64,000 nt of DNA from Ostreococcus lucimarinus (taxonomy: Eukaryota): assembly GCA_000092065.1 (NCBI GenBank), contig CP000592.1. The stretch is one strand, 5' to 3'. Under the pieces are notes generated by a model, which saw only the letters and a program-made list of their open reading frames with translations, did no database searches and was not told the DNA's origin. Numbering within the stretch: the stretch's first letter is position 1; every line of letters begins with the position of its first letter. The position numbers and the translations under genes are program-made. Of this stretch, positions 51,078-64,000 are shown one piece after another.

Positions 51078-54000
51078 CTATGAGAGCGTGCCTATTGCTT
51101 CGAAGTCATTCAGCATGTTACGCGAATGCACGGCTTCGAAGATTTTCGTACCGTCGCCTCCGCCGTATCGCAAAATTGCGTCGGCGCCGGCGGGATGGTC
51201 ATCCAAGAAATCGGTAAAGTCGTAAACACGGCCGTACAAAGCCACCCAGCAGTCATCCGCGGAGGCGTGTTTAGCGAGTTCCTCATGCGTGATAATGCGA
51301 TCTCGTTTCGGTATCTTCAGTTTCGGTACCTCCGTCGCGGCAGATGGCGCATCCGTGTTTGAGACAATGTTCACGTTCGTGCCGACGAGCCGCCCGAACA
51401 CCGCGCACTCAGTGAGCGCATTTCCACCTAGACGATTCTTGCCGTGCACACCACCGATGATTTCCCCAGCGGCAAATAATCCAGCGACGGGCGTTCCATC
51501 AGCTCGCACGACTCGTCCATAGCTATCAACCTTGACACCACCCATGGTGTAATGTACCACTGGCGTGACTCGCCCGGCGTAAAACGGCCCAGAAACTTTG
51601 AAAGGCGCGTTAGCAAAGTATGTCTTGTTGAATTCATCGAGACCCGCATTGGCTTGGTCGTTGTACTGCTCCAACGTCGCACGAAGCTGAGACTCCGTCG
51701 TGTTTCCACGGACGGACATCCACTTCGTCAAATCCGCGAGTGTGTCGAACTTGGTCATCAGGTTCTTCTTCACGTAAAGCGGCACATGCTTGTTCGCTTC
51801 GCTCGCGCCTTTTTCATCAAGCAGTAACACGAAGTCGAGCTTTTCTGCGTCTTCTTCTTGCATGCGAGCGCTGACGTAATCACGCGTGCCAAGCTCGTTG
51901 GCAAATCGTTTACCCGAACGATTCAATAGAATACCACCCGCACCTCGGAGTAATTCTGCGGCAAGCGTTTTCGTGTCGGCGCCCTCGTCTTCAGGATTGA
52001 TGAAGCCCGTGGGATGTACTTGAACGCGTTGCATGTCAACAGCACCAGCGCCTAATCCAAAAGCGAGCTTGTGTCCATCACCGGTCGTGCCTTTCGTGTT
52101 TGTCGTGGCGAACTTTGTGAGCTGAGGCGCGTACTTGCTCAGTAATGCGTCTTCTCCTTGCTTGTCATTCGAGTATCCCCCGGTGGCGAGCAGCACGTGG
52201 CGTGCTCTGACTTCGCCGCCTACATTACTACCATTCGAACCATCGGATGGCGTCCAACGCACGGCATTGATCGCGCCATCTTCAGCAGTGATTATTTCAC
52301 TCACCCTAGCCTTTTTCACCACTTTAAATCGCCCAGATTGAATGTAGTCTTCGCATTTCCCTTTGAGTGCGAAAACGAGAGACGATCCCGCCATACCTTC
52401 GTTCGGTCTGTACGTACGAGCGTAGCTGTGCCCTCCAAGCCTCGAAAGTAGGCTTAAATCGGCGCCAACGCGTCGACGAAGCCATTCAATCGTGGCACCA
52501 GCCTGGCTAGTGAGCGTCGGGATATGTTCGACGGTTTCGGGATCGAGATTTTCGCGACCGTTGCCGTTTCCGTAGGAGGATTTTTCGCAGTCGTCTGAAT
52601 ACGCTTCGACGCTGTCGGGATTATCTTCAAACGAAGTCTTGATCACTCCGTTGATCCCCGAAGACGCCCACTGAGAATTACCACCAACATATGCCTCTTT
52701 CTCTACCAACGTCACCCTACCGCCACGATCGAGCACGGTGAGTGAAGCCGTCAAGCCCGCTAAACCGCCGCCGACGACGACCAAGTCAACCGGGGGGTCA
52801 TCTTCAATGCCGCCTTTGGGTAGGGGTACGCCGAGTGCGCGAAGCGCGTGTTCGATGAATCTCCACGGCATGCTCTCAGCGTAGTACTTTGCTAAGACGA
52901 CAACTTTTGGATTATCCTCGAGCATTGCGCTCACGATGGCTGCCTCTGATTCTGGCGTCAACGCGCCAGATTTCACGTACGTCGCGGTAGCTGCAATCGC
53001 CGCCTCCAGTGGGCTCTGCTCCACCTTTTGACCGCCTTCAGTTTCGCGCAGATGTAAACCAACGCTTTCCAAATCTACTGAGCTCTTCAACGCGTCCTGC
53101 CTCGCCGCATTCATGAGTTCGGGCACTTTGCGAATGGCGTGACTAAACTTTGCAATGGTGTTCACAAGAGCCACCACCTCTTGCTTGTTCAAAGAAGACT
53201 CCAAGAGATCTTCGGGCAAGAGCAAGACTTTCAACGCCGAACCAAGACCCAAGAGTTGAAGTTTACCGTGAAGCTTGCACTTTTGACACGAAATGCAGTC
53301 CATGACTTCGCTAATGTTCAAGAAGATGTCTTTGAACTGGCTCTTCAGCGACACCGGCGCGAGAAGCTCTTCTCCCACTCCGCTGATCATTCCCGAGTTC
53401 GCACTCAACGTCGACTGCACATCGCGAAAAAGAGACTTTTCATCGAAAGCACCGAAGACATCGCGACAAGACGACAAAATGTGGCTTTCCAGCAAGCGAC
53501 TCATCAAAGCGTGCGTTCGCTCGTCCTCTTCGGCGTCTTGACCGATGCGAACGTCCATCTTCGACAGCGCCGGGGCCGCCTTACGAAGCGCTCTCAAGAG
53601 GACGACGAAAGAAAAGTGCAAGTTTTTCAGACGTTCTGGGTGCTTGGCGAATATTTCCACGAACTTTTTGGGATCGCTTCCCCACTCCGTTTCCCCGAGC
53701 GCGCGTTTCGGAGGCTTGGAGTGAAGCGCGATGTGGATGTTGATGCTCGAATGCATGCCGGACAAAAGGCGATACAGCACCCGCTCTTCGTAGCACATTT
53801 CATCCACGCTCGACGCCGACTTTAAGCAATTCTCTTCGTAAATGGCCCGCCAAACGTGCGATCCGTTGTATCCAGTCCATCGCTCTGGATTCAGCTGCAA
53901 GTTTACGTACTCTGTTTGCTCCTCGGGCGCAAACTTGTGGCACATGTCCGTCCAAAACGTCGGCAAATCCTCATCCGAGCATTCCGTTTCCGGGACGTCG

Positions 54001-54593
54001 ATGGACGTCAACGCCTCCGCCTCGGGCGTACTGATGGTTCGATCAACGCTATCCGTCACCGGGCTCCGCAGCGTCGGTTCCGAGCCATCCTTATGTTCCA
54101 AATCTAGCGAGCACATCGTCTTCGGCGGCGACGCCGACGACGACGACGCGAACGGGGCGGAAGAAAAACCACCACCGCCGTGACCACCGTCACCGAACGC
54201 CGCGGTCGCACCGGACGGCGCCTCGCACGACGGCTCCGTCTCCGTCTTCGTCTCCGCGCCTTCCGTCGCCTTCCAAAACTTACACGTCCGTTTCAAATCC
54301 ACTTGAAACAACCTAAAATACGTCGTATTCGTCAACTCACTGAGAATAGAGTGTAACTGCGCCTCGTTCGCGCCCTCGACGTCCTCCACGTCGCACGACG
54401 CGTCCCCGACCGCGCCTCGCACCGCGTCGCGCGAGCGCGTCTCGCCTTCGCCTTCCCCTTCGCCCGTCGCCACCCCCGCGCCCCGCGCGCCGACGCTCGA
54501 CGCCACCGCGACGACCGCGATCGCGCCCACGAGCACCATCCACCATCGTCCGCGTCGTTCGCGTCCGCGTCCGCGCGTCCGCGTCGTCGCCAT
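51078..54593 (-). CDS. Single-ORF fusion: signal-anchor + ERO1 (endoplasmic oxidoreductin-1) + FAD-dependent soluble fumarate reductase (flavocytochrome/OSM1-like) + C-terminal cytochrome b5 domain
   Basis: N-terminus [36 protein letters not shown] is a signal peptide or anchor. ERO1 region: [68 protein letters not shown], and the CxxCxxC active site [34 protein letters not shown] Rossmann motif [16 protein letters not shown]. Fumarate-reductase/SDH-flavoprotein-type stretches [43 protein letters not shown]. Cytochrome b5 HPAG motif in [57 protein letters not shown]. Uninterrupted 3516-nt frame from ATG 54591-54593; the track ORF extends to 54923 with no ATG. Confidence 0.75.
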
Positions 54594-54630
54594 CGTCGCG
54601 AACCAATCAATCAATCCGTCGCGCGGTCGA

Positions 54631-54700
54631 ACCGAACCGCGCCGAACCGCGCCGAACCGCGCCGAACCGCGCCGAACCGCGCCGAACCGCGCCGAACCGA
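54631..54700. repeat. Tandem 10-nt repeat (GCCGAACCGC)x6-7, immediately upstream of the ERO1-fusion gene
   Basis: accgaaccgcgccgaaccgcgccgaaccgcgccgaaccgcgccgaaccgcgccgaaccgaaccgatccgc seen directly. Its reverse complement carries GGTTCGG units, as does the 15895-15921 repeat. Confidence 0.7.
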
Positions 54701-55294
54701 ACCGATCCGCGACGCCCGCCCGCCCCCTCGCCCGCGCCCCCCCGCGCGCGCGTCGCTCGCGTCGCGCGATGCCGCCGCGATCGGTCGCCCGCGCCGTCTC
54801 CATCGCACATTCGTCGATCGCTCGTTCGCGTCGATCGACGATCGACCGATCGCCCGTTCGACGCGCGATCGGTCGAACGGCCCTCGGGGGCGAAACACAC
54901 CACCGCGGGCGGACCCGAAACACCGCGACAGCGGACCAAACGATGTTACGTATTTAACATTCACTTTACACTAGATGGTATTTTCCGCGACTCGCCGATC
55001 TCGACACGCGCCCGACGTCTTTCGGTCGCCGTTTCGCGCCGCGCGACGACGGCGGCGACGACGCCGCGCGACGGCGACGACGCCGCGCGACGCGACGCGA
55101 CGCGAAGAGTCGACGCTCGACGCTCGACGCTCGACGCGCGCGCGTCGCGACGCGTCGACGCGTTCGGCGCGCGTCGAGCGGCTCGGATCGGAGTTCGTTG
55201 GGCGCCGCCGCCGATCGACGATCGCGCGGGCGCGACGCGGATTCGAGGGCGCGCGCGACGCGCGGCGACGAGCGATCGACGACGATCGTCGACG

Positions 55295-56224
55295 ATGGGG
55301 AGGGGGACGGGGAGCGACGCGACGGCGCGGGCGGCGGAGGCGAGGACGAGGGCGCGGGACGACGACGCGAGGGCGGACGCGCGGGGCGACGCGAACGCGA
55401 ACGCGAACGCGAACGCGAACGCGAACGCGAACGCGGCGAGACCGCCGTATGCGGCGATGACGGTGTATCCGGCGGTGTACGGGGCGTACGATGCGATGCG
55501 AGCGATGTCGCCGATGACGTACGACGCGTACGCGGGCGCGGCGCGCGCGGTGGCGGTGCCGGGGGATTCGTTTTCGAGACAGATTCAGGAGCGGGCGTAC
55601 GCGAGCGCGTTTACGTTTACGCGGCAGTGGAATTATTTGCAACACGCGGCGGCGGCGCAGCACGCGGCGTTCGCGTCGGGGAGTCGTGGGGGTGGAACGA
55701 TGATGGATCTTCTCGCCGCCACCGGTTCGGCGGCGGCTGAGCGCGATATCGGCGTCGAGCGCGAGGTGGAGCTGAGCAAGCGACAGCGGTTGGTGTGGAC
55801 GCCGCAACTGCACGCGCAATTCATCGCGGCGGTGCAAAAGCTCGGGGTTAAGACGGCGGTGCCGAAGGCGATTATGAAAATAATGAATGTCAAAGGGTTG
55901 ACGCGTGAAAACGTCGCTTCGCATTTGCAGAAGTATCGTCTGACGCTCAAACGAGCGCAGGATAGCTCTGAATCGACCCGGGCGTCGGGAGACGCGACAG
56001 ACGCGAAGAGAAGCGACGTCCGCGCGGGACGTAAGAGGAAAGATCGCGAAGAAAAAGGTAAAACCAACAGTGGAAGCGGCCAGGGAAGCGGCCAGGGAAG
56101 TGACGGTGGAAGTGCCGAGCATAGCGCGAGTGAAAACCTCGAGAATCGCGCCAAGCGAATTTCTTCCAGCGAAGAAGAAGAGACGCGACAAATTACGCTC
56201 GCCGTCGACCACAACGACGAATAA
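55295..56224 (+). CDS. GARP (G2-like) Myb-type transcription factor
   Basis: The SHAQKYF-class single Myb repeat is [54 protein letters not shown], with the GARP hallmark LHxxFVxAV...SHLQKYR. N-terminal (AN)7 from (GCGAAC)7 at 55391-55432. ATG 55295. Confidence 0.7.
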
Positions 56225-56410: not shown

Positions 56411-57670
56411 TCACACTTTGTTTTGCTCCTCCTCGAGAAAGTAAATCACGGGTTTGAGCTCGAACGGAAGGGGAGAAGTATTGTCGTACGCGGGCAGATC
56501 AACTGGACGTTGCGACGGCGGTAGCGACGCGTACGCCGACGCCTTGGTTCGCTTCGTGTACTCGTCTCGCAACTCCTTGACGGTTTTCAGCGCGTAAAGC
56601 AGCATCGCGTACGCTCGAGGCGGCGACTCGGGCGAGCGAGATGAACGCTTGAGCTTGGACAAAATCACTCGAAAGCAAGCCTCCATGCGATCCCACGCCT
56701 CGGTGAGCTCGGCGATTTTTCTCGTCCAATACGTATCGTGCCACGCCGCGTGTGCTTCGCCTTGCAGGTGAAACATTCTAATCCATTGAAATTCAACCTC
56801 GCGATGGACGTCGGCTAAGAACTGTATCTGTTTCGCATCCAAAGGTTTATTCTCGCGCTCTAAGTCTGGTACAATTGCGAGCGCATCGATACACCGCCTT
56901 TTGATGTACTGGAACGTATCCTTGGCCACCACGGCGACTCGATGTGTCGAAGAATATCTCGCACTCGAGCCGGTGAGCACGGCGTGATGGTGAGTGGCGT
57001 TGAACTCACCACACATGTAATACGTCGCTTTATCCTCCAAAGGCACGCAAAGCACCTCGCACTCCGCGTTCAACGCCCTCAGCGCCACTCGCCAGTCTTT
57101 TCTCTCTGGCGCCTCGTATGTGTGATACACCGCCACGGTGGAGTTTTCTCGCAACGACGAATCGCTGTGCCAACTCACCGACGTCGTCCCGAGATCGAAC
57201 TTCTCCTCATTCCGTAGCTCTATTTCGCTCTCACCCTCTGTTTCCATGTAATTAATCAGCGTCACGTTGTATTCGCACTCACTCTCCGCGAACGCTCCGC
57301 CGAGCTTTTCGCATCGCTCTCGCGCGCTCCTCGTCAGCGTCTCGTTCAACCGTCTCACCACTTCGTACGCCTCCCGTCCGCGCCACGGTTGCGCAAACAG
57401 GCGTAACTTCTGATAATGATACGTCATTCCGTCCTCACCGAGCAGGCAGCGCCGCACGTACGTCGTGGACACTTTATTTCCGGCGGAAACGACGTCGTGC
57501 GTGAATTCGCCTCGGCTGCGCATGTCGTCGAACGCGCGTTCGACGTCGTCGTGAAGCGACGCGGGAAGCACCGAGGGCGCGTCCACGACGAAACCGCGGT
57601 AGTGCGCTCGATGGACGCGCGCGAACGGTTCGCCGTCCTCGGGTTCGAGCACGGAGGATGACGGCGACAT
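56411..57670 (-). CDS. FTO: FTO-family Fe(II)/2-oxoglutarate-dependent nucleic-acid demethylase homolog
   Basis: Extensive colinearity with human FTO: GMTYHYQKLRLFAQPW (GCTYKYLNTRLFTVPW), EYNVTLINYME (AYNVTLLNFMD), SVSWHSDSSLRENSTVAVYHTYE ([24 protein letters not shown]), YYMCGEFNATHHHAVLTGSSARYSSTHRVA ([30 protein letters not shown]), EVEFQWIRMFHLQGE (EVEFEWLRQFWFQGN), SPLPFEL (MPLPFDL). Iron ligands HxD...H and the C-terminal helical domain are retained. ATG 57668-57670. Confidence 0.85.
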   Translation of the reverse strand: MSPSSSVLEPEDGEPFARVHRAHYRGFVVDAPSVLPASLHDDVERAFDDMRSRGEFTHDVVSAGNKVSTTYVRRCLLGEDGMTYHYQKLRLFAQPWRGREAYEVVRRLNETLTRSARERCEKLGGAFAESECEYNVTLINYMETEGESEIELRNEEKFDLGTTSVSWHSDSSLRENSTVAVYHTYEAPERKDWRVALRALNAECEVLCVPLEDKATYYMCGEFNATHHHAVLTGSSARYSSTHRVAVVAKDTFQYIKRRCIDALAIVPDLERENKPLDAKQIQFLADVHREVEFQWIRMFHLQGEAHAAWHDTYWTRKIAELTEAWDRMEACFRVILSKLKRSSRSPESPPRAYAMLLYALKTVKELRDEYTKRTKASAYASLPPSQRPVDLPAYDNTSPLPFELKPVIYFLEEEQNKV

Positions 57671-57876
57671 GACGCGAGGGACAGTGACGGCGGCGGTTGT
57701 GTCGCGCTTTTCGCTCTGAGCAGTCGTTCGCGAACGCGCGCGAGCGGCGAAGTCATGAAGCGCGTGAAAGTGCGTGAAAGAGTTTAAATTACACGATTCT
57801 AAATGCGGTTAAGTTGCTTATTCATTTCTCGTCCAAGATCGACGGGCGATTGAGAGACTTCGGTTTCGCGGTTTGC

Positions 57877-58578
57877 TCACATGGCGGCGAAGAGCGTGGC
57901 GCCGAGTCGGGCGACGCCCATGGTGAAGTGCTTCGTGAACTCGGCAGCCTTGAAGGCGGCGGCGTGCTTACGCATCATGTAAAGGTTCATCAAGTTGTCC
58001 ACGGCGTGGAACTTGGCCACGGTGCCGAGAGATTCCTCGGGAAGGATGGTGAACATCTTCATTGTGCCCATCCAGCGAAGAAAGCCGATGGTGGCGGTCC
58101 AGTGGATTGCGATATAATCGGTGGCTTTGATCTTGGACGAGAACCAGCCCGCGACGGTGGCGTCGCCGAAGTGAAGCATGAGCATGTAGTACAACTCCAT
58201 AAGCAAAGAGGCGGCGATGATCTTTTGCTTGACAGTCTTGGAATCCGTGATAAAGTTGCGCATCGGAGTAAGACGCGTCGTACCGCGTTGCGACTCGGCG
58301 AGCAAGATAAACGTGAGCAAGCCCACCTTGGATCCCATCGCGAGCTCCTTGGTCACTTGAAGACCACCGATGCGCGACTTGGCGCCGTGGCACGACATAA
58401 CGGTGATGCGAGAGAAGCATCCGATCATCTGCGCGAATGTGAATCGGTGCAGCGTCGGCTCGGATTGCGTCCTCGCGACGTACACGAGGGCGACCATGGA
58501 CGTTAAGAGCATGATTCCGGTCGCGTGCATCATAAAGTCAGAGATAACGGTGCTCTTAAGACCGTAGTACTTCATCAT
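57877..58578 (-). CDS. Hypothetical multi-pass membrane protein (233 aa, about 6 predicted TM helices)
   Basis: Real tandem ATGs at 58573-58578. Hydrophobic segments (GIMLLTSMVALVYVA; KVGLLTFILLA; IIAASLLMELYYMLMLHF; IAIHWTATIGFLRWM; ...) alternate with short loops. No family recognised. Confidence 0.45.
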   Translation of the reverse strand: MMKYYGLKSTVISDFMMHATGIMLLTSMVALVYVARTQSEPTLHRFTFAQMIGCFSRITVMSCHGAKSRIGGLQVTKELAMGSKVGLLTFILLAESQRGTTRLTPMRNFITDSKTVKQKIIAASLLMELYYMLMLHFGDATVAGWFSSKIKATDYIAIHWTATIGFLRWMGTMKMFTILPEESLGTVAKFHAVDNLMNLYMMRKHAAAFKAAEFTKHFTMGVARLGATLFAAM

Positions 58579-59024: not shown

Positions 59025-60248
59025 TTACTCGATGGCGCAACCGTCGGCGTCTTTCCCGTCGATAACGTTGCGCCACCGGCGATAATGTAAACCGAGCTTA
59101 TCATAAGCTACGGGATGGGCCCAAACTCGGGCACCACGCTGCATGCGGTCTTGTTGACCCGTGACTAGACGTAAATCCTCGCCGAGAACTTGGTTCGCCA
59201 TCTCGGTCCAGATGTATTCGATGCCCGGGACGTATTGGGCCCACGAGGCAAAATCGAGGGACATACGGTAGAGCAAACGCGTGTGACCTGGAGTGCTAGG
59301 CAAGCACACGTGGAGCTGATGCAAGTGCTTCTCGCACTCCAACGCGCTGACACCTTCCTTAAACTGCGCACCCTTACCCACTGCGCCCGCTTGCGCCAAG
59401 CCAATGTGGCTGTCAACCATGCACGGCGCCAAAAACTTCATGTCGATGGGGTACGGTTTCCAGCTCCCTTCGCTGCGACCGTTGGCGAGAAAGTTACCCA
59501 TATCGTGCCACCCGTCGCCGTCTTTTCTTAATTTGCGAGACGCAAACTTGACCATGTTTGGCACGCCCCAACCCTTGGCAAAGGTGCCGGTGTGCGTAAA
59601 CGGCGCGTGCGCCAAATCGAGCAAGTTCTCCATCAACAACCCGTGTTCGACGGGAACGTCCTCGATGATGAGTTCTGCGTGAATGGTGTACCCTTCTGGC
59701 GCCGCAAAGTGCGACGGAAGCTCCTCCGTGGGTCCACAATTCATCGAAGGCCACACCATGACGAGCCCGTCCCTCGTCCCCGTCGCCAGCATCGTACGCG
59801 GACTCTTCTTACTCTCGCATTCGTACTGCCCTTCCGCAACCTTGCGCACCACCCACGTCTCATCTAGCAAAACAACCTCGACTTCTTCGTCGATTTCCTT
59901 AAACTTGCTCTCAAACATCACCGGATACCAAAACTCCCGAATCTTACTCTCCTCCCGCGGCGTCTCCAACGAGCTCTCGTCGCAAAACACCCGACGCATC
60001 CCCGGTCGCACCTTTCGACTCACCGCCGCCGCGCTCGTCGCGACGCTCTCCACTTCCGTCTTCACCACGAATCTCTCATCCGCGACGACGCGCGTATCGT
60101 TCGAATCCGTCACCGCTCGCGTCCGCGTCGTCCTCGCCGTCGATCGCGTCCGTACCTTCCCGTCGTCTCTCCCTCGCCCGACCCTCTCTCTTCGCGCCCT
60201 TTCTCCCGCGCGCGCGCCCGTCGACGTCGGCGCTCGCATCGCGCGCAT
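59025..60248 (-). CDS. CAO: Chlorophyllide a oxygenase catalytic (mononuclear-iron) subunit lacking the Rieske [2Fe-2S] domain (split CAO, 'CAO2'-type), with a plastid transit peptide
   Basis: Strong colinearity with the C-terminal half of plant CAO: [44 protein letters not shown] ([43 protein letters not shown]), [77 protein letters not shown]. The Rieske CxH...CxxH ligands are absent, so the Rieske half is not in this gene. Start is ATG 60246-60248; the track start at 60293 is GTG. Confidence 0.8.
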   Translation of the reverse strand: [407 protein letters not shown]

Positions 60249-60586
60249 CTTCACCGTCCCTCGTCCCCGTTCGCTCGTCCGCGCGCGTCGCACGACGCGA
60301 ATGCGTTCGCTCGATTCGTTTGGATACGCTATCCACGATCGCGACGCGCGCGACGCGAAACGCGCGCGCGCGTCGCGTCGTCGCGCGTCGCGCGTCGGCT
60401 ATCCCGAGCGGAGGCGTCTTCGGGCGACCGCGCGTCGACCGGGCGCGCGCGCGGGCGTGCGCGACGGCGTGTGACGCGGCGCGCGCGCGCGTATCCCGGT
60501 ATCCCGGTTGGCGCGCTGCGCTGGCGCCGCGCGAGGTGTGATTTCGTGCATTTTTGGATTTTTGATTTCGCATCCGTCCGTCTGCG

Positions 60587-61591
60587 CTACGCCGCGGTCG
60601 ACGACGAGGAATAATTAATCGCGCTGTCGCCGACGGCGTAATCGCCGCGAAGATCAGTCGGGGCGATCGAACCGTCGCGAGGGGGCACGGTCAGGTCGAC
60701 GCATCGAACCTGCCCGAGCTCGAACGGGTAGTCGAGGTGGTGGCGGGAGAGGTCGGTGCCGTTCAACGCGGCGGCGAAGACGCTGAGGGTGTCCTGATGG
60801 GAGACGATGATGATGTCTTCGCCGTAATACGTGGCTTCGAGACGCGTGAACGCCTCGAGGGCGCGTCGATAAATGTCTAAGCACGACTCCACGCTCGCCG
60901 ACGGTTGCAACGAACTCGGCACCGGAGGCGGCGTCGAGGAGGGGTCGTCGAAATCGTTCTTCCAAACGTCAACCCACGCCTCTTGCGAGCCGAAATCCAA
61001 CGCACCCATCTTTCTCGGATCTAATAACCCGCTAAACTCGGTGCGCATCTGCGAAAACAACAGCCCGATCTCTTCCCTGAGCACCAACGCGCTTTGAAAC
61101 GACCGCTGAAAATTCGACGTGTACAACCACGCCGGCGCGCCGTCGAAATCCCTTAAAATAGTCTTCGCCGCCTCTTGCATCTGCGCTCGGCCTCTCGCCG
61201 TCAGCCCGAACGTGGTGTCGTACTTGAAGCTCGGGTTACTCAAAATCATCCCCCCGTTCCGCACGTCCAGCACCGATTCTCCGTGCCTCACGAAGAAGTA
61301 TCTGTTGTGGAGCCGACTCGGTAAATCTATGAACGCCCGCGCCGGCGCCGCGCCGATCTCGCCCGCCCCGACCGCGCCCACGAGCGCGATCCCTCTCCCC
61401 AGCGCTCCTCGCCTGCTCACGCCGTCCTCGCGCGTCGTCGCGCCGCTTCGCGCCCCCTCGCCGTCTCGCGATGTCCCGCGCGCGCGCGCGCGTCGACGTC
61501 CATCCGCGCGTCCTCGCGACGTCTTTCGCGCGCGTCGCGGCGTCGACGGACGCGCGATCGTCGGAGACGAGTTCGCACGCGCGCACGGCAT
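60587..61591 (-). CDS. Histidine phosphatase superfamily (PGAM-like) protein with a presequence followed by a twin-arginine (Tat) motif. Predicted thylakoid-lumen targeting.
   Basis: RHG catalytic motif in YFFVRHGESVLD. ...LYTSNFQRSFQSALVL...IIIVSHQDTLSVFAAAL with a His in SHQ. The N-terminus from ATG 61589-61591 is Ser/Thr/Arg-rich and is followed by SRRGALGRGIALVGAVGAGEIGAAPARA (RR + hydrophobic + AxA). The track start at 61765 is GTG. Confidence 0.6.
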   Translation of the reverse strand: MPCARANSSPTIARPSTPRRARKTSRGRADGRRRARARGTSRDGEGARSGATTREDGVSRRGALGRGIALVGAVGAGEIGAAPARAFIDLPSRLHNRYFFVRHGESVLDVRNGGMILSNPSFKYDTTFGLTARGRAQMQEAAKTILRDFDGAPAWLYTSNFQRSFQSALVLREEIGLLFSQMRTEFSGLLDPRKMGALDFGSQEAWVDVWKNDFDDPSSTPPPVPSSLQPSASVESCLDIYRRALEAFTRLEATYYGEDIIIVSHQDTLSVFAAALNGTDLSRHHLDYPFELGQVRCVDLTVPPRDGSIAPTDLRGDYAVGDSAINYSSSSTAA

Positions 61592-61772
61592 CGCGCGCGT
61601 CGACGCGTGACGCCCGTCGTCGCCGTTCGCGCGCGCATCGTGCGCCGACACGCGCCAGCCATCGCAACCGTCACGAGGTCCGAGTTTAGCGCTACATGCC
61701 GAGTCTCGCACCGTCGTATGGGTAAACAGTCGGAACCGTCGGACGGCGGCGCGTCGACGGCACACGGCGACG

Positions 61773-62731
61773 ATGCGCGCGCGACGACGACGCGACGGCG
61801 ACGACGGCGACGACGAGGACGCGCGCGATGATGACGTCGATCGCGACGACGACGACGACGCGTCGACCGACGACGACGACGACGGCGAACGCGGGATGGA
61901 TTCGGACGACGAACTCGAGCGCGAGATGGCGGCGCTGGAATCGGTGAAACGCGAGCGCGCGGGCGCGCGGGACGGCGCGACGGCGAGGAAGAGTTACGCG
62001 AACAATGAAAAGGGGTTGGAGGCGAGCCTGGAAGGTGCGACGCGACGCGACGCGCGGCGGATGAGGGAAGGATGGGATGGGACGGGAACGGGACGGAGGC
62101 GCGCGCGGGGTTGTCGAGACCGAACGCGAAGACTGACGACGACGGTGATGGAACCGCGCGGTGCGGCGTAGATTTTAAATGGACGCATAAGGCGAAATGG
62201 ATCGATCACATGACGATCACGGGGACGAATGCGGAGCGCGTGGTGGATGTGAACGACGACTTGACGAGGGAAACGTTTTTTTACGAGCGAGCGTTGGAGA
62301 GCGCGAACGAGTGCGTGCGACGGTTGAAAGATCTCGGAGTTCCCGTGCGAAGACCGGATGATTACTACGCTGAAATGGTGAAGAGCGATGAGCACATGAA
62401 GCGCGTGCGAAGTGAGTTATTGTTCGAGCAACAACAGTTGGAGATTCGCGAGGAGCGCAGGAAAGCGCGCGAATCGAAAAAGTACGGTAAACAAGTGCAA
62501 GCCGAGAAGATCAAGCAACGAACGCTCGACAAGAAATCGCAAATTAAAAGTTTGGATAAGTGGAGGAAGCAGCGCCAGAAGAGTGGGTTCGCGGACGACG
62601 GCAAGGCGCCGTTCGAGGGCGCGGGTGGCGACGCCAAGCGCAAGCGCGAGGATCGGGATTCCAAATACGGCTTCGGTGGACGTAAAAAGGTACGTGCGAT
62701 GCTCTCGTCGAAACGCGCGCGAAGATGTTAG
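61773..62731 (+). CDS. EBP2: rRNA-processing protein EBP2 (EBNA1BP2 homolog). Two exons: 61773..62034 and 62172..62731. Intron 62035..62171.
   Basis: Exon 2: RPDDYYAEMVKSDEHMKRVRSELLFEQQQLEIREERRKARESKKYGKQVQAEKIKQR...KYGFGGRKK matches the human EBP2 core (RPTDYFAEMAKSD..., KKYGKKVQ..., QKFGFGGKKK). Exon 1 is the acidic N-terminus from ATG 61773. The junction is G|GTGCGA ... gcgtag|, phase 1, and resolves the frame shift between track ORFs 61773..62171 and 62072..62731. Confidence 0.75.
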
Positions 62732-63295: not shown

Positions 63296-63813
63296 CTACG
63301 CGAGAAATCGATCGTCGTCTTCGTCGTCGCCGAATCGACACTCGTCCCTGCGTCCCAAGATCGAGTACCGATTATCCGCCACGCGATCGTACACCCAATC
63401 CCCCACCACCCGAGGCACCGCCCACATCGCCACTCGCGCCGCCCCCCCGAACGGCGCCCCCAACAAATCTCTCCCTATGCGCAGTATCGCCTCCGACTTC
63501 GCGTACGCCGTCCCGCTCGCCTCCACGTACACGATGCTGCTGATGTCGTCCGCGTCCCGTCCCGCCTCCACCAACAGCGCGCGCCCGACGGACGATTGCA
63601 GCGCGGCGAACCGCACCGACCCCCTCGCGCGGTCTCGATCGTGCCGCAGCGCGAAGTTCACCGCCCCGTTGCACAGATTGCACACGCCGTCGTACAGCAC
63701 GATTCCGCGGTCGTCGCTCGCGAACAGCGCGCGCGACCGCGGTTCGCTCGCGGCTCGCGTCGCGCACGCGCGTCGTCGCGCGCGCGTCGTCGCGGGCGCT
63801 CGACGCGTCGCCG

Positions 63814-63846
<33 letters not shown>

Positions 63847-63850
63847 GCAT
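63296..63850 (-). CDS. DCC-family thiol-disulfide oxidoreductase (DUF393/YuxK-like)
   Basis: Family-defining motif with two Cys in IVLYDGVCNLCNGAVNFALRHD. ATG 63848-63850 ([12 protein letters not shown]...). The track start at 63862 is GTG. Confidence 0.55.
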
Positions 63851-64000
63851 CGCGTCACACACTGGCGCGCCGCATGCGCGCCGCGCGGGTCGGGACGCGC
63901 GACGCGCGCGGGACGACGACGACGACGCGCGTCGGTGGCGTCGGTGGCGTCGTCGCGCGTCGCGCGCGTCGCGTCGCGGTCGCGATGCGCGCGGCGCGCG

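What the first reader, a model, noticed from the sequence alone, without database searches (positions are those of the whole stretch)
59025..60248. Chlorophyllide a oxygenase catalytic half lacking its Rieske domain (split CAO)
The ORF matches only the mononuclear non-haem-iron half of CAO. The match is very strong ([62 protein letters not shown]). The Rieske CxH...CxxH cluster ligands are missing, and the gene is preceded by a transit peptide instead. In Micromonas, CAO is known to be encoded as two separate polypeptides: a Rieske subunit and a mononuclear-iron subunit. This gene fits the second subunit. It supports the lineage assignment and predicts a partner Rieske gene elsewhere in the genome.
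Basis: partly seen in the sequence, partly recalled or inferred. Interest (0 to 1): 0.55.

Follow-up and report, generated by a model that had tools for sequence, protein, structure and literature searches.

The report
Iron-binding subunit of two-gene chlorophyll-b synthase
This gene encodes the iron-site subunit of the chlorophyll b-making enzyme (CAO), which tiny marine green algae such as Ostreococcus and Micromonas split over two genes; this arrangement is already published, so the finding is correct but ordinary.

Summary
Window 59025-60248 (-) is an intact, intronless 407-aa ORF. It carries the PaO and VanA_C catalytic domains and the mononuclear-iron motif E207-x3-D211-x2-H214-x4-H219, plus D358. 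No Rieske C-x-H...C-x-x-H ligands occur in this ORF or anywhere else in the 64 kb window.

The interpretation, the Fe-binding subunit of the two-gene "heterodimeric" CAO of Mamiellophyceae, is supported. Two corrections apply.

1. The organism is Ostreococcus (O. lucimarinus-like), not Micromonas. The protein is 79% identical to the O. tauri orthologue and 57% to the M. pusilla one.
2. The Rieske domain is gutted, not absent. A confidently folded 61-residue Rieske-fold remnant (aa 107-167) survives, against 103-108 residues in intact CAOs. Only the cluster-binding insert is deleted.

The predicted partner exists. A 386-aa Rieske-only CAO paralogue, 385/386 identical to O. lucimarinus XP_001418699.1, lies on a different chromosome-sized contig of an assembly that also encodes this exact protein. 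That partner keeps the catalytic-domain scaffold but has lost the iron ligands. The "split" is therefore a duplication followed by reciprocal loss of ligands.

The system is already published (Kunugi 2013). A 2025 preprint lists both O. lucimarinus genes. Novelty: already known. Interest: low.

The parts
59025..60248 (-). Complete CDS (407 aa plus stop) of the CAO Fe-binding subunit; single exon
   Evidence: ORF list. One contiguous tblastn HSP against six full-length CAOs. The protein is identical to P0127, which was called as a 407-aa gene on all four sister contigs fetched for it.
59979..60248 (-). N-terminal presequence (about aa 1-90). It is rich in R/A/T/V/S, not conserved among orthologues, and is the presumed chloroplast transit peptide plus linker
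   Evidence: Composition is 21 R, 12 A, 12 T and 12 V in the first 100 aa. AF2 pLDDT is below 50 for aa 1-79. It does not align with orthologues. The only two amino-acid variants among the sister contigs (T10M, A73T) fall here. Targeting itself was not tested.
59748..59930 (-). Vestigial Rieske-fold scaffold (aa 107-167: WYPVMFES...[12 protein letters not shown]...DGLVMVWP)
   Evidence: It aligns to both flanks of the Rieske domain of full-length CAOs. The span is 61 aa, against 103-108 aa in intact CAOs. AF2 predicts six strands with block-mean pLDDT of 94-98.
59790..59834 (-). Deletion scar (aa 139-153, [15 protein letters not shown]). It replaces the roughly 58-residue cluster-binding insert (C-A-H-R-A-C-P-L-S-L-G...C-P-Y-H-G-W) of intact CAOs
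   Evidence: Alignments A1 and A3 and the BLASTP against Chlamydomonas CAO show the gaps exactly here. The regex finds no Cys/His ligand pattern.
59592..59630 (-). Mononuclear non-haem iron motif E207-N-L-L-D211-L-A-H214-A-P-F-T-H219. H214 and H219 are the presumed Fe ligands, and D211 is the presumed bridging Asp to a neighbouring Rieske cluster
   Evidence: E207, D211, H214 and H219 are invariant in the 44-sequence alignment. The regex for [ED]x3Dx2Hx4H matches. Ligand roles are inferred by analogy with naphthalene dioxygenase E200/D205/H208/H213 (established knowledge).
59175..59177 (-). D358, the probable third (carboxylate) iron ligand, in the long C-terminal helix
   Evidence: E357-D358 is invariant across Fe-subunits and full-length CAOs and is replaced by E-E in the Rieske-only paralogue. 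It lies in helix 343-370 of the AF2 model. The ligand role is inferred.
59070..59648 (-). Catalytic domain (VanA_C PF19112, aa 201-393, containing PaO PF08417, aa 272-375)
   Evidence: hmmscan. Foldseek finds alpha3-type Rieske oxygenases NdmA, GxtA/SxtT, dicamba monooxygenase and carbazole dioxygenase at E about 1e-10.
59070..59087 (-). C-terminal CAO motif H388-Y-R-R-W-R393. It corresponds to R-Y-R-R/L-W-R, the Arg-rich Tyr motif discussed for CAO
   Evidence: Y389, R390 and R393 are invariant. The motif is described for Chlamydomonas and Arabidopsis CAO in PMC12963167.
60249..60586 (.). 338-bp GC-rich (CG-repeat) intergenic region between the CAO-Fe gene and the upstream His_Phos_1 gene. 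It contains an in-frame stop at 60399-60401
   Evidence: Sequence, translation and composition. It leaves no room for a Rieske-encoding exon.

Best explanation
The gene encodes the mononuclear-iron (catalytic) subunit of a two-gene chlorophyllide a oxygenase in an Ostreococcus lucimarinus-like prasinophyte (Mamiellophyceae).

Shown here:
- The polypeptide keeps the full CAO catalytic domain with the 2-His-1-carboxylate iron motif.
- It has lost only the roughly 45 residues of the Rieske domain that carry the [2Fe-2S] ligands.
- A paralogue is encoded on another chromosome-sized contig. That paralogue keeps an intact Rieske centre but has lost the iron ligands and the C-terminal CAO motif.

Inferred:
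- After import into the chloroplast the two paralogues assemble into a hetero-oligomer built like an ordinary alpha3-type Rieske oxygenase.
- In those enzymes electrons always pass from the Rieske cluster of one protomer to the iron site of the neighbouring protomer through a bridging Asp (here D211). A complex in which one protomer type supplies only the cluster and the other only the iron site can therefore still turn over.
- The iron site of this subunit then oxidises the C7 methyl of chlorophyllide a to the formyl group of chlorophyllide b.
- The retained Rieske-fold remnant most likely serves as structural scaffold or interface.
- The lack of the plant-type N-terminal regulatory domain fits the high Chl b content of these algae.
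For: Domains and motif.

CAO homology: 44% identity and E=1e-95 to C. reinhardtii CAO, and 41-48% identity to many full-length CAOs that carry PF00355.

Orthologues without Rieske ligands: O. tauri XP_003082289.2 at 79% identity, Bathycoccus P0184 and M. pusilla P0013. P0184 and a second Micromonas-type hit, P0017, carry MMETSP transcript labels marked complete.

No upstream Rieske exon.

Partner gene: P0477 (386 aa, with CCHRACPLSLG...CPYH) is 385/386 identical to O. lucimarinus XP_001418699.1. It lies on contig Ga0527078_0047 (759 kb) of JGI assembly 3300050343. Contig Ga0527078_0085 (540 kb) of the same assembly encodes the exact window protein and is 99.5% identical to the window over 15 kb.

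Reciprocal degeneration: the partner aligns end to end with the window protein (aa 94-362 vs 60-361, E=2e-20). It reads ERLLDITER where the window protein has [13 protein letters not shown], and EELEDV where it has EDLRLV. Its AF2 model still folds both domains.

Fold: alpha3 Rieske oxygenases.

Literature: both Micromonas gene products are needed for an active CAO, as cited from Kunugi 2013. Purified MpCAO makes chlorophyllide b with VanB and NADPH. O. lucimarinus Fe-binding and Rieske genes are listed on scaffolds 12 and 7.
Against: No activity, assembly or localisation data exist for the Ostreococcus proteins. The stoichiometry of the complex is unknown (a heterodimer was proposed, and a trimer of dimers was suggested in PMC9615114). 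The ligand roles of D211 and D358 rest on analogy. The partner was found in a 99.5%-identical sister assembly, not in the window's own assembly. The transit peptide is inferred from composition only.
Confidence: 0.9

Rival explanations
1. It is a decaying, non-functional CAO paralogue (a pseudogene in progress) that has lost its Rieske centre. A different, intact CAO does the work.
For: The Rieske ligands are deleted and the Rieske fold is shortened to 61 aa. Variation among the sister contigs is too sparse (2 non-synonymous, 1 synonymous) to demonstrate purifying selection.
Against: The ORF is intact. All iron ligands and about 65 catalytic-domain residues are invariant against full-length CAOs. 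The same architecture is conserved in Ostreococcus, Bathycoccus and Micromonas at 55-83% identity. The only amino-acid variants lie in the presequence. No full-length CAO with both motifs appeared among the Ostreococcus-type hits, and 7 of 7 Mamiellophyceae genomes surveyed have only the two-gene form.
Confidence: 0.03
2. It is a gene-model artefact. A Rieske-encoding exon lies upstream and is spliced on, so the real protein is a normal one-polypeptide CAO.
For: Only the general possibility of introns in prasinophyte genomes supports this. The window ends 3.75 kb upstream of the ATG.
Against: There is an in-frame stop 51 codons upstream, and the His_Phos_1 gene on the same strand ends 338 bp upstream. 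No C-x-H...C-x-x-H motif occurs in any frame of the window or within 10 kb upstream on four independent sister contigs. The alignment to full-length CAOs is collinear through the remnant, with the deletion inside the ORF. Complete-labelled transcriptome ORFs of Micromonas-type (P0017) and Bathycoccus (P0184) orthologues, which have the same PaO plus VanA_C domain content as the window protein, start with a presequence and carry no Rieske Pfam hit.
Confidence: 0.02
3. It is a real enzyme but independent of the CAO-Rieske paralogue. The Fe subunit would receive electrons from another donor (ferredoxin or another Rieske protein) or catalyse a different PaO-family reaction (PAO, TIC55 or PTC52-like).
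For: The Pfam hit is to the generic PaO domain shared with PAO, TIC55 and PTC52. O. tauri orthologues are annotated 'Pheophorbide a oxygenase'. No interaction data exist for Ostreococcus.
Against: The nearest full-length relatives are all CAOs at 41-48% identity, including the CAO-type C-terminal YRRWR motif. The bridging Asp211 that normally contacts a neighbouring Rieske His is retained. A co-evolving Rieske-only CAO paralogue with a preserved catalytic-domain scaffold exists in the Ostreococcus, Bathycoccus and Micromonas lineages examined. In Micromonas both genes were required for activity (Kunugi 2013, as cited).
Confidence: 0.05

Closest known systems
Micromonas pusilla two-gene CAO (MpCAO1/MpCAO2; Kunugi, Takabayashi & Tanaka 2013, J Biol Chem 288:19330), mononuclear-iron subunit
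   Same: It has the same architecture: presequence, Rieske-fold remnant without Cys/His ligands, and a CAO catalytic domain with [13 protein letters not shown]. It lacks the N-terminal regulatory domain. It is 57% identical over 99% of the length to the M. pusilla 419-aa protein P0013. A separate Rieske-only paralogue is present.
   Different: The genus differs (Ostreococcus). The Rieske remnant is shorter (61 aa vs 84 aa in M. pusilla and 73 aa in Bathycoccus). No functional data exist for the Ostreococcus pair. Sources disagree on which Micromonas gene is numbered 1 or 2. The preprint says CAO1 is the Fe subunit, my recollection of the 2013 abstract is the reverse, and the paper was not available.
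Ostreococcus lucimarinus CCE9901 / O. tauri 'heterodimeric CAO' gene pairs catalogued in bioRxiv 10.1101/2025.02.10.637544 (Supplementary Table S1)
   Same: This is very probably the same gene. The O. lucimarinus Fe-binding-domain gene is listed on scaffold 12 and the Rieske-domain gene on scaffold 7. The partner found here is 385/386 identical to O. lucimarinus XP_001418699.1, which sits on a 783-kb record. The O. tauri orthologue XP_003082289.2 is 79% identical.
   Different: The window's own record name is unknown. The 540-kb sister contig is 99.5%, not 100%, identical in DNA. I could not confirm that the deposited O. lucimarinus Fe-subunit model equals this 407-aa sequence.
Single-polypeptide CAO of plants, chlorophytes and Prochlorothrix (for example C. 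reinhardtii CAO, Marchantia CAO, PhCAO)
   Same: The catalytic domain is homologous throughout (44-47% identity). The iron motif is identical, and the conserved [11 protein letters not shown] and YDKLGxxYRRWRN blocks are shared.
   Different: About 45 residues carrying the [2Fe-2S] ligands are deleted. There is no A/B regulatory domain or degron. Two lineage-specific insertions in the catalytic domain (about aa 237-259 and about aa 287-292) are absent from one-gene CAOs.
alpha3-type Rieske non-haem iron oxygenases with solved structures (NdmA, GxtA/SxtT, dicamba monooxygenase DdmC, carbazole 1,9a-dioxygenase)
   Same: The overall two-domain fold is shared (Foldseek E about 1e-10, about 370 aligned columns), as is the 2-His-1-carboxylate motif. 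The inter-protomer Rieske-to-Fe electron path makes a two-subunit division of labour mechanistically feasible.
   Different: Sequence identity is only 11-16%. A sequence-only search of the PDB found nothing at E<=1. Those enzymes are homotrimers in which every protomer has both centres.

Membership tests
Rieske non-haem iron oxygenase, alpha subunit (canonical definition) | Rieske [2Fe-2S] ligands C-x-H-x(15-17)-C-x-x-H in the N-terminal domain | tested here: not met
   There is no PF00355 hit and no ligand pattern in the protein or in any frame of the window. About 45 residues are deleted at the homologous position.
Rieske non-haem iron oxygenase, alpha subunit (canonical definition) | Mononuclear iron motif [ED]-x3-D-x2-H-x4-H plus a downstream Asp | tested here: met
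   E207-x3-D211-x2-H214-x4-H219 is present, its four defining residues are invariant, and D358 is invariant.
Rieske non-haem iron oxygenase, alpha subunit (canonical definition) | Two-domain fold (Rieske beta-sandwich plus helix-grip catalytic domain) | tested here: met
   The AF2 model (pTM 0.70) has strands at aa 108-166 and the catalytic domain at aa 188-396. Top PDB matches are all alpha3 Rieske oxygenases over about 370 columns. The Rieske sandwich is truncated.
Chlorophyllide a oxygenase (CAO) | Closest full-length homologues are CAOs, not PAO, TIC55 or PTC52; CAO sequence blocks are conserved | tested here: met
   Named hits are CAOs from Chlamydomonas, Volvox, Marchantia, Nephroselmis and Palmophyllum at 41-48% identity. 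E=1e-95 to C. reinhardtii CAO. No explicit tree with PAO, TIC55 and PTC52 was built.
Chlorophyllide a oxygenase (CAO) | C-terminal Arg-rich Tyr motif R-Y-R-x-W-R | tested here: met
   The window has H388-Y-R-R-W-R393. The first Arg is His in Ostreococcus, while Y389, R390 and R393 are invariant. The motif is described in PMC12963167.
Chlorophyllide a oxygenase (CAO) | Converts chlorophyllide a to chlorophyllide b | not testable with these tools
   This needs an enzyme assay or complementation.
Two-gene ('heterodimeric') CAO of Mamiellophyceae, Fe-binding subunit | Fe motif present and Rieske ligands absent in a complete polypeptide | tested here: met
   The same state holds in the O. tauri, Bathycoccus and M. 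pusilla orthologues.
Two-gene ('heterodimeric') CAO of Mamiellophyceae, Fe-binding subunit | A separate CAO paralogue with Rieske ligands but no Fe motif in the same genome | tested here: met
   It is not in the window. In JGI assembly 3300050343 the exact window protein is on a 540-kb contig and the Rieske-only paralogue P0477 is on a 759-kb contig. P0477 has CCHRACPLSLG...CPYH and no Fe motif. This was shown for a 99.5%-identical sister genome, not for the window's own assembly.
Two-gene ('heterodimeric') CAO of Mamiellophyceae, Fe-binding subunit | No N-terminal regulatory (A-domain/degron) region | tested here: met
   Only about 90 non-conserved residues precede the Rieske remnant. Nothing aligns to the N-terminal 150-300 residues of plant or chlorophyte CAOs. 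The absence in Mamiellophyceae is stated in the preprint.
Two-gene ('heterodimeric') CAO of Mamiellophyceae, Fe-binding subunit | Both subunits required together for Chl b synthesis; physical association | not testable with these tools
   Shown for Micromonas by Kunugi 2013, as cited. No multimer prediction tool was available here.
Two-gene ('heterodimeric') CAO of Mamiellophyceae, Fe-binding subunit | Chloroplast targeting | not testable with these tools
   The N-terminus is rich in Arg, Ala, Thr and Ser and is disordered in the model, which is compatible with a transit peptide. No predictor was run.

The most novel reading that the evidence does not exclude
The Ostreococcus Fe subunit carries the most reduced Rieske scaffold of the compared lineages (61 aa vs 73 in Bathycoccus, 84 in Micromonas and about 104 in intact CAOs). 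Its partner keeps a ligand-less catalytic scaffold. If these two 'dead' half-domains are the elements that hold an obligate pseudo-symmetric hetero-oligomer together, the pair would be a natural minimal example of duplication-degeneration-complementation within a single metalloenzyme. It would also give a template for engineering split Rieske oxygenases. The lineage-specific insertions at about aa 237-259 and 287-292 could be heteromer-specific contacts.
Probability: 0.25. Interest if true: 0.3.

Novelty: already known. Interest (0 to 1): 0.12.

Why it matters
The gene confirms that the window comes from a Mamiellophyceae picoalga, specifically an Ostreococcus lucimarinus-like one. It also shows that this abundant marine lineage makes chlorophyll b with the two-subunit form of CAO and without the plant-type regulatory domain, a feature linked in the literature to Chl b-rich antennae suited to blue-green, low light. 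For annotation it matters because these genes are often mislabelled 'pheophorbide a oxygenase', or called bacterial in metagenome bins (for example 'hypothetical protein [bacterium]'). It does not open a new question. The arrangement, its distribution and the need for both subunits are already published.

Tried and rejected
- NCBIfam scan: no family matched, as expected for a bacterial and archaeal library.
- Sequence-only PDB search: no hit at E<=1. The fold search was needed instead.
- Rfam on 55-64 kb: nothing.
- dN/dS among sister contigs: only 3 variant codons among 10 sister contigs, too few to test selection.
- Kunugi 2013 (PMC3707637) is not held, so its content is cited second-hand. 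The MpCAO1/2 numbering could not be resolved.
- Searching the window for the partner by regex and by tblastn with six full-length CAOs: negative.
- Exact species name of the window: no named record carries the identical protein among the cluster members read. Assignment to an O. lucimarinus-like strain rests on the partner gene in the sister assembly and on 79% identity to O. tauri.
- GTG-extended start at 60293: rejected in favour of ATG 60248, because this is a eukaryotic gene and the 407-aa model was called on every sister contig fetched.
- Micromonas origin: rejected, at only 57% identity.
Full report
**1. What is at the coordinates**

On the minus strand an ORF runs from ATG 60248 to a stop at 59025-59027 and encodes 407 aa. 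The mechanical ORF extends to a GTG at 60293.

Pfam finds the PaO domain (PF08417, aa 272-375, E=1.6e-18) and VanA_C (PF19112, aa 201-393, E=8e-14). There is no Rieske PF00355 hit.

Two are spelled slightly differently from the plant consensus: [15 protein letters not shown] and LHYRRWRN.

tblastn of six full-length CAOs against the whole window gives one contiguous HSP each. Their window ends range from 59028-59058 up to 59942-60059, and nothing else in the window is significant. The gene is therefore intronless and is the only CAO-like sequence in the 64 kb.

**2. Is the Rieske centre really missing, and could it be on an upstream exon?**

- A six-frame regex for C-x-H-x(14-24)-C-x-x-H finds nothing in the window.
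- The same scan finds nothing on ten sister contigs, four of which carry 10 kb upstream of the gene.
- The reading frame is closed by a stop 51 codons upstream of the ATG, at 60399-60401.
- The next gene upstream is a His_Phos_1 protein on the same strand at 60587-61765. It ends only 338 bp away, across a 72%-GC CG-repeat spacer.
- Complete-labelled transcriptome ORFs of a Micromonas-type orthologue (P0017) and a Bathycoccus orthologue (P0184) have the same PaO plus VanA_C domain content and no Rieske Pfam hit.

**3. A correction: the Rieske domain is gutted, not absent**

Alignments with full-length CAOs show that homology begins at FWYPVMFES (aa 106). It continues through [12 protein letters not shown], skips the cluster-binding insert, and resumes at DGLVMVWP.

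Measured between these anchors, the Rieske-fold span is:

| Protein | Span (aa) |
|---|---|
| Window protein | 61 |
| O. tauri Fe subunit | 60 |
| Bathycoccus Fe subunit | 73 |
| M. pusilla Fe subunit | 84 |
| CAOs and paralogues with Rieske ligands | 103-108 |

The AlphaFold2 model (44-sequence alignment, pTM 0.70) folds this remnant as six strands, with block-mean pLDDT of 94-98. In contrast, aa 1-79 are below pLDDT 50.

Foldseek against the PDB returns only alpha3-type Rieske oxygenases (NdmA, GxtA/SxtT, dicamba monooxygenase, carbazole dioxygenase). E-values are about 1e-10 over about 370 columns.

The iron motif residues E207, D211, H214 and H219 (E207-x3-D211-x2-H214-x4-H219) and D358 are invariant across 44 Fe-type and full-length CAOs.

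**4. Whose gene is it?**

The protein is identical to database entry P0127. That entry occurs in 354 blocks of marine metagenome assemblies, including a 540,025-bp JGI contig. That contig is 99.5% identical to the window over 15 kb.

Nearest named orthologues:

- O. tauri XP_003082289.2: 79% identity.
- Bathycoccus prasinos: about 55%.
- Micromonas pusilla: 57%.

The window is therefore Ostreococcus, not Micromonas.

**5. The predicted partner**

An exhaustive representative search with a full-length prasinophyte CAO was filtered for "Rieske ligands present, Fe motif absent". This exposed a family of full-sized Rieske-only CAO paralogues.

Searching with one of them and listing cluster members named two proteins: O. 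lucimarinus XP_001418699.1 (386 aa, on a 783-kb record) and O. tauri XP_003080336.2 (on a 770-kb record). The O. tauri Fe-type gene sits on a different, 543-kb record.

P0477 is 385/386 identical to the O. lucimarinus protein. It lies on a 759-kb contig of JGI assembly 3300050343, the same assembly whose 540-kb contig encodes the window protein. The partner therefore exists and is unlinked.

**6. Nature of the "split"**

The two Ostreococcus paralogues align end to end (aa 94-362 vs 60-361, 25% identity, E=2e-20). The Rieske-type paralogue differs as follows:

- It keeps CCHRACPLSLG...CPYHGW.
- It reads ERLLDITER in place of [13 protein letters not shown].
- It reads EELEDV in place of EDLRLV.
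- It lacks the QQDRM...YDKLG block, and its C-terminal YRRWRN motif is degenerate (FRVFKR).

Even so, its AF2 model still folds a C-terminal sheet-and-helix domain (pTM 0.74). Related clusters in the same search, including the Bathycoccus-like P0305, still score for PF08417. This is the signature of gene duplication followed by reciprocal loss of ligands, not of a fission between domains.

**7. Mechanism**

- Shown: the domain content, the retained iron ligands, and the retained Asp211.
- Established knowledge: in alpha3 Rieske oxygenases electrons move from the Rieske cluster of one protomer to the iron of the adjacent protomer via a bridging Asp (NDO Asp205).
- Inference: a hetero-oligomer of Fe-type and Rieske-type protomers preserves that inter-protomer path, with catalysis (C7-methyl to formyl) at this subunit's iron site.
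- Literature: both Micromonas genes are needed for an active CAO (Kunugi 2013, as cited). Purified MpCAO makes chlorophyllide b with VanB and NADPH and may be a trimer of dimers.

**8. Comparison with what is known, and novelty**

The two-gene CAO is published for Micromonas. A 2025 preprint extends it to all 7 Mamiellophyceae genomes surveyed. It explicitly lists O. lucimarinus genes for the "Fe-binding domain" (scaffold 12) and the "Rieske domain" (scaffold 7). It also reports the arrangement in Chloropicon, Caulerpa and Bigelowiella.

The finding is therefore a correct re-identification of a catalogued gene. The vestigial scaffold lengths and the reciprocal degeneration are modest descriptive additions. 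I could not check whether the 2013 paper already describes them.

**9. Rivals**

- Pseudogene: contradicted by invariant catalytic residues and by conservation across genera.
- Hidden upstream exon: contradicted by section 2.
- A different PaO-family enzyme, or independence from the Rieske paralogue: contradicted by CAO-specific similarity and by the co-occurring partner. It is not formally excluded without biochemistry.

**10. Verdict**

Novelty is "already known" and interest is low (0.12).

Noticed in passing
window 51078-54923 (-): A 1281-aa ORF (1153-1240 aa in gene calls on sister contigs) fuses three redox modules: ERO1 (PF04137, aa 189-599, E=4.8e-87), a fumarate-reductase/succinate-dehydrogenase-type FAD_binding_2 domain (PF00890, aa 713-1170, E=1.1e-76) and cytochrome b5 (PF00173, aa 1212-1279, E=1.1e-19). 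This is a Rosetta-stone-like fusion, which hints that ER disulfide oxidation could be coupled to a flavoprotein/b5 electron sink in this alga.
   Followed up: partly
window 56411-57670 (-): A 419-aa protein has FTO catalytic and C-terminal domains (PF12933 E=2.7e-86, PF12934 E=4.8e-66). It lies two genes downstream of CAO-Fe and is conserved in position on all sister contigs. From my own knowledge, FTO homologues outside vertebrates are known mainly from marine algae.
   Followed up: partly
window 57877-58578 (-), overlapping 57814-58506 (+): A 233-aa ORF lies between FTO and CAO-Fe. It has no Pfam hit and an unusually Met/Lys/Phe/Ile-rich composition for this GC-rich genome. A 230-aa ORF on the opposite strand almost fully overlaps it. 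It is called as a gene on every sister contig, but which strand or frame is real is unclear.
   Followed up: no
window 55000-55500, 60000-60500, 61250-62000, 63500-64000: Sharp GC spikes (0.70-0.76, against about 0.55 in gene bodies) appear at these positions. Where the genes were examined (60000-60500 and 61250-62000) they coincide with 5' ends, Arg/Ala-rich N-terminal presequences and CG-repeat intergenic spacers.
   Followed up: no
window protein aa ~237-259 and ~287-292 (window ~59472-59540 and ~59373-59390): Two insertions in the catalytic domain ([23 protein letters not shown] and GAVGKG) are shared by the four Mamiellophyceae-type Fe subunits aligned (window, O. tauri, M. pusilla, Bathycoccus) and are absent from one-gene CAOs. 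Confidence is low in the AF2 model (pLDDT below 50 for the first insertion and for aa 287-290 of the second). They may be heteromer-specific surfaces.
   Followed up: partly
loci L011-L018, 6001-7161 (+) (partner gene on sister contigs): The Ostreococcus Rieske-type CAO paralogue has C-C-H-R-A-C instead of the usual C-A-H-R-A-C at the first ligand pair. It is flanked by Med14 and LON-substrate-binding-domain genes. Related proteins in metagenome bins are labelled 'hypothetical protein [bacterium]', which indicates eukaryotic contigs mis-binned as bacterial.
   Followed up: partly
window 60587-61765 (-), 62072-62731 (+), 55295-56224 (+): The neighbouring genes are a His_Phos_1 (phosphoglycerate-mutase-like) protein with a long Arg-rich presequence directly upstream of CAO-Fe on the same strand, the rRNA-processing protein EBP2, and a Myb-domain protein. 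Nothing suggests a functional link to CAO.
   Followed up: no
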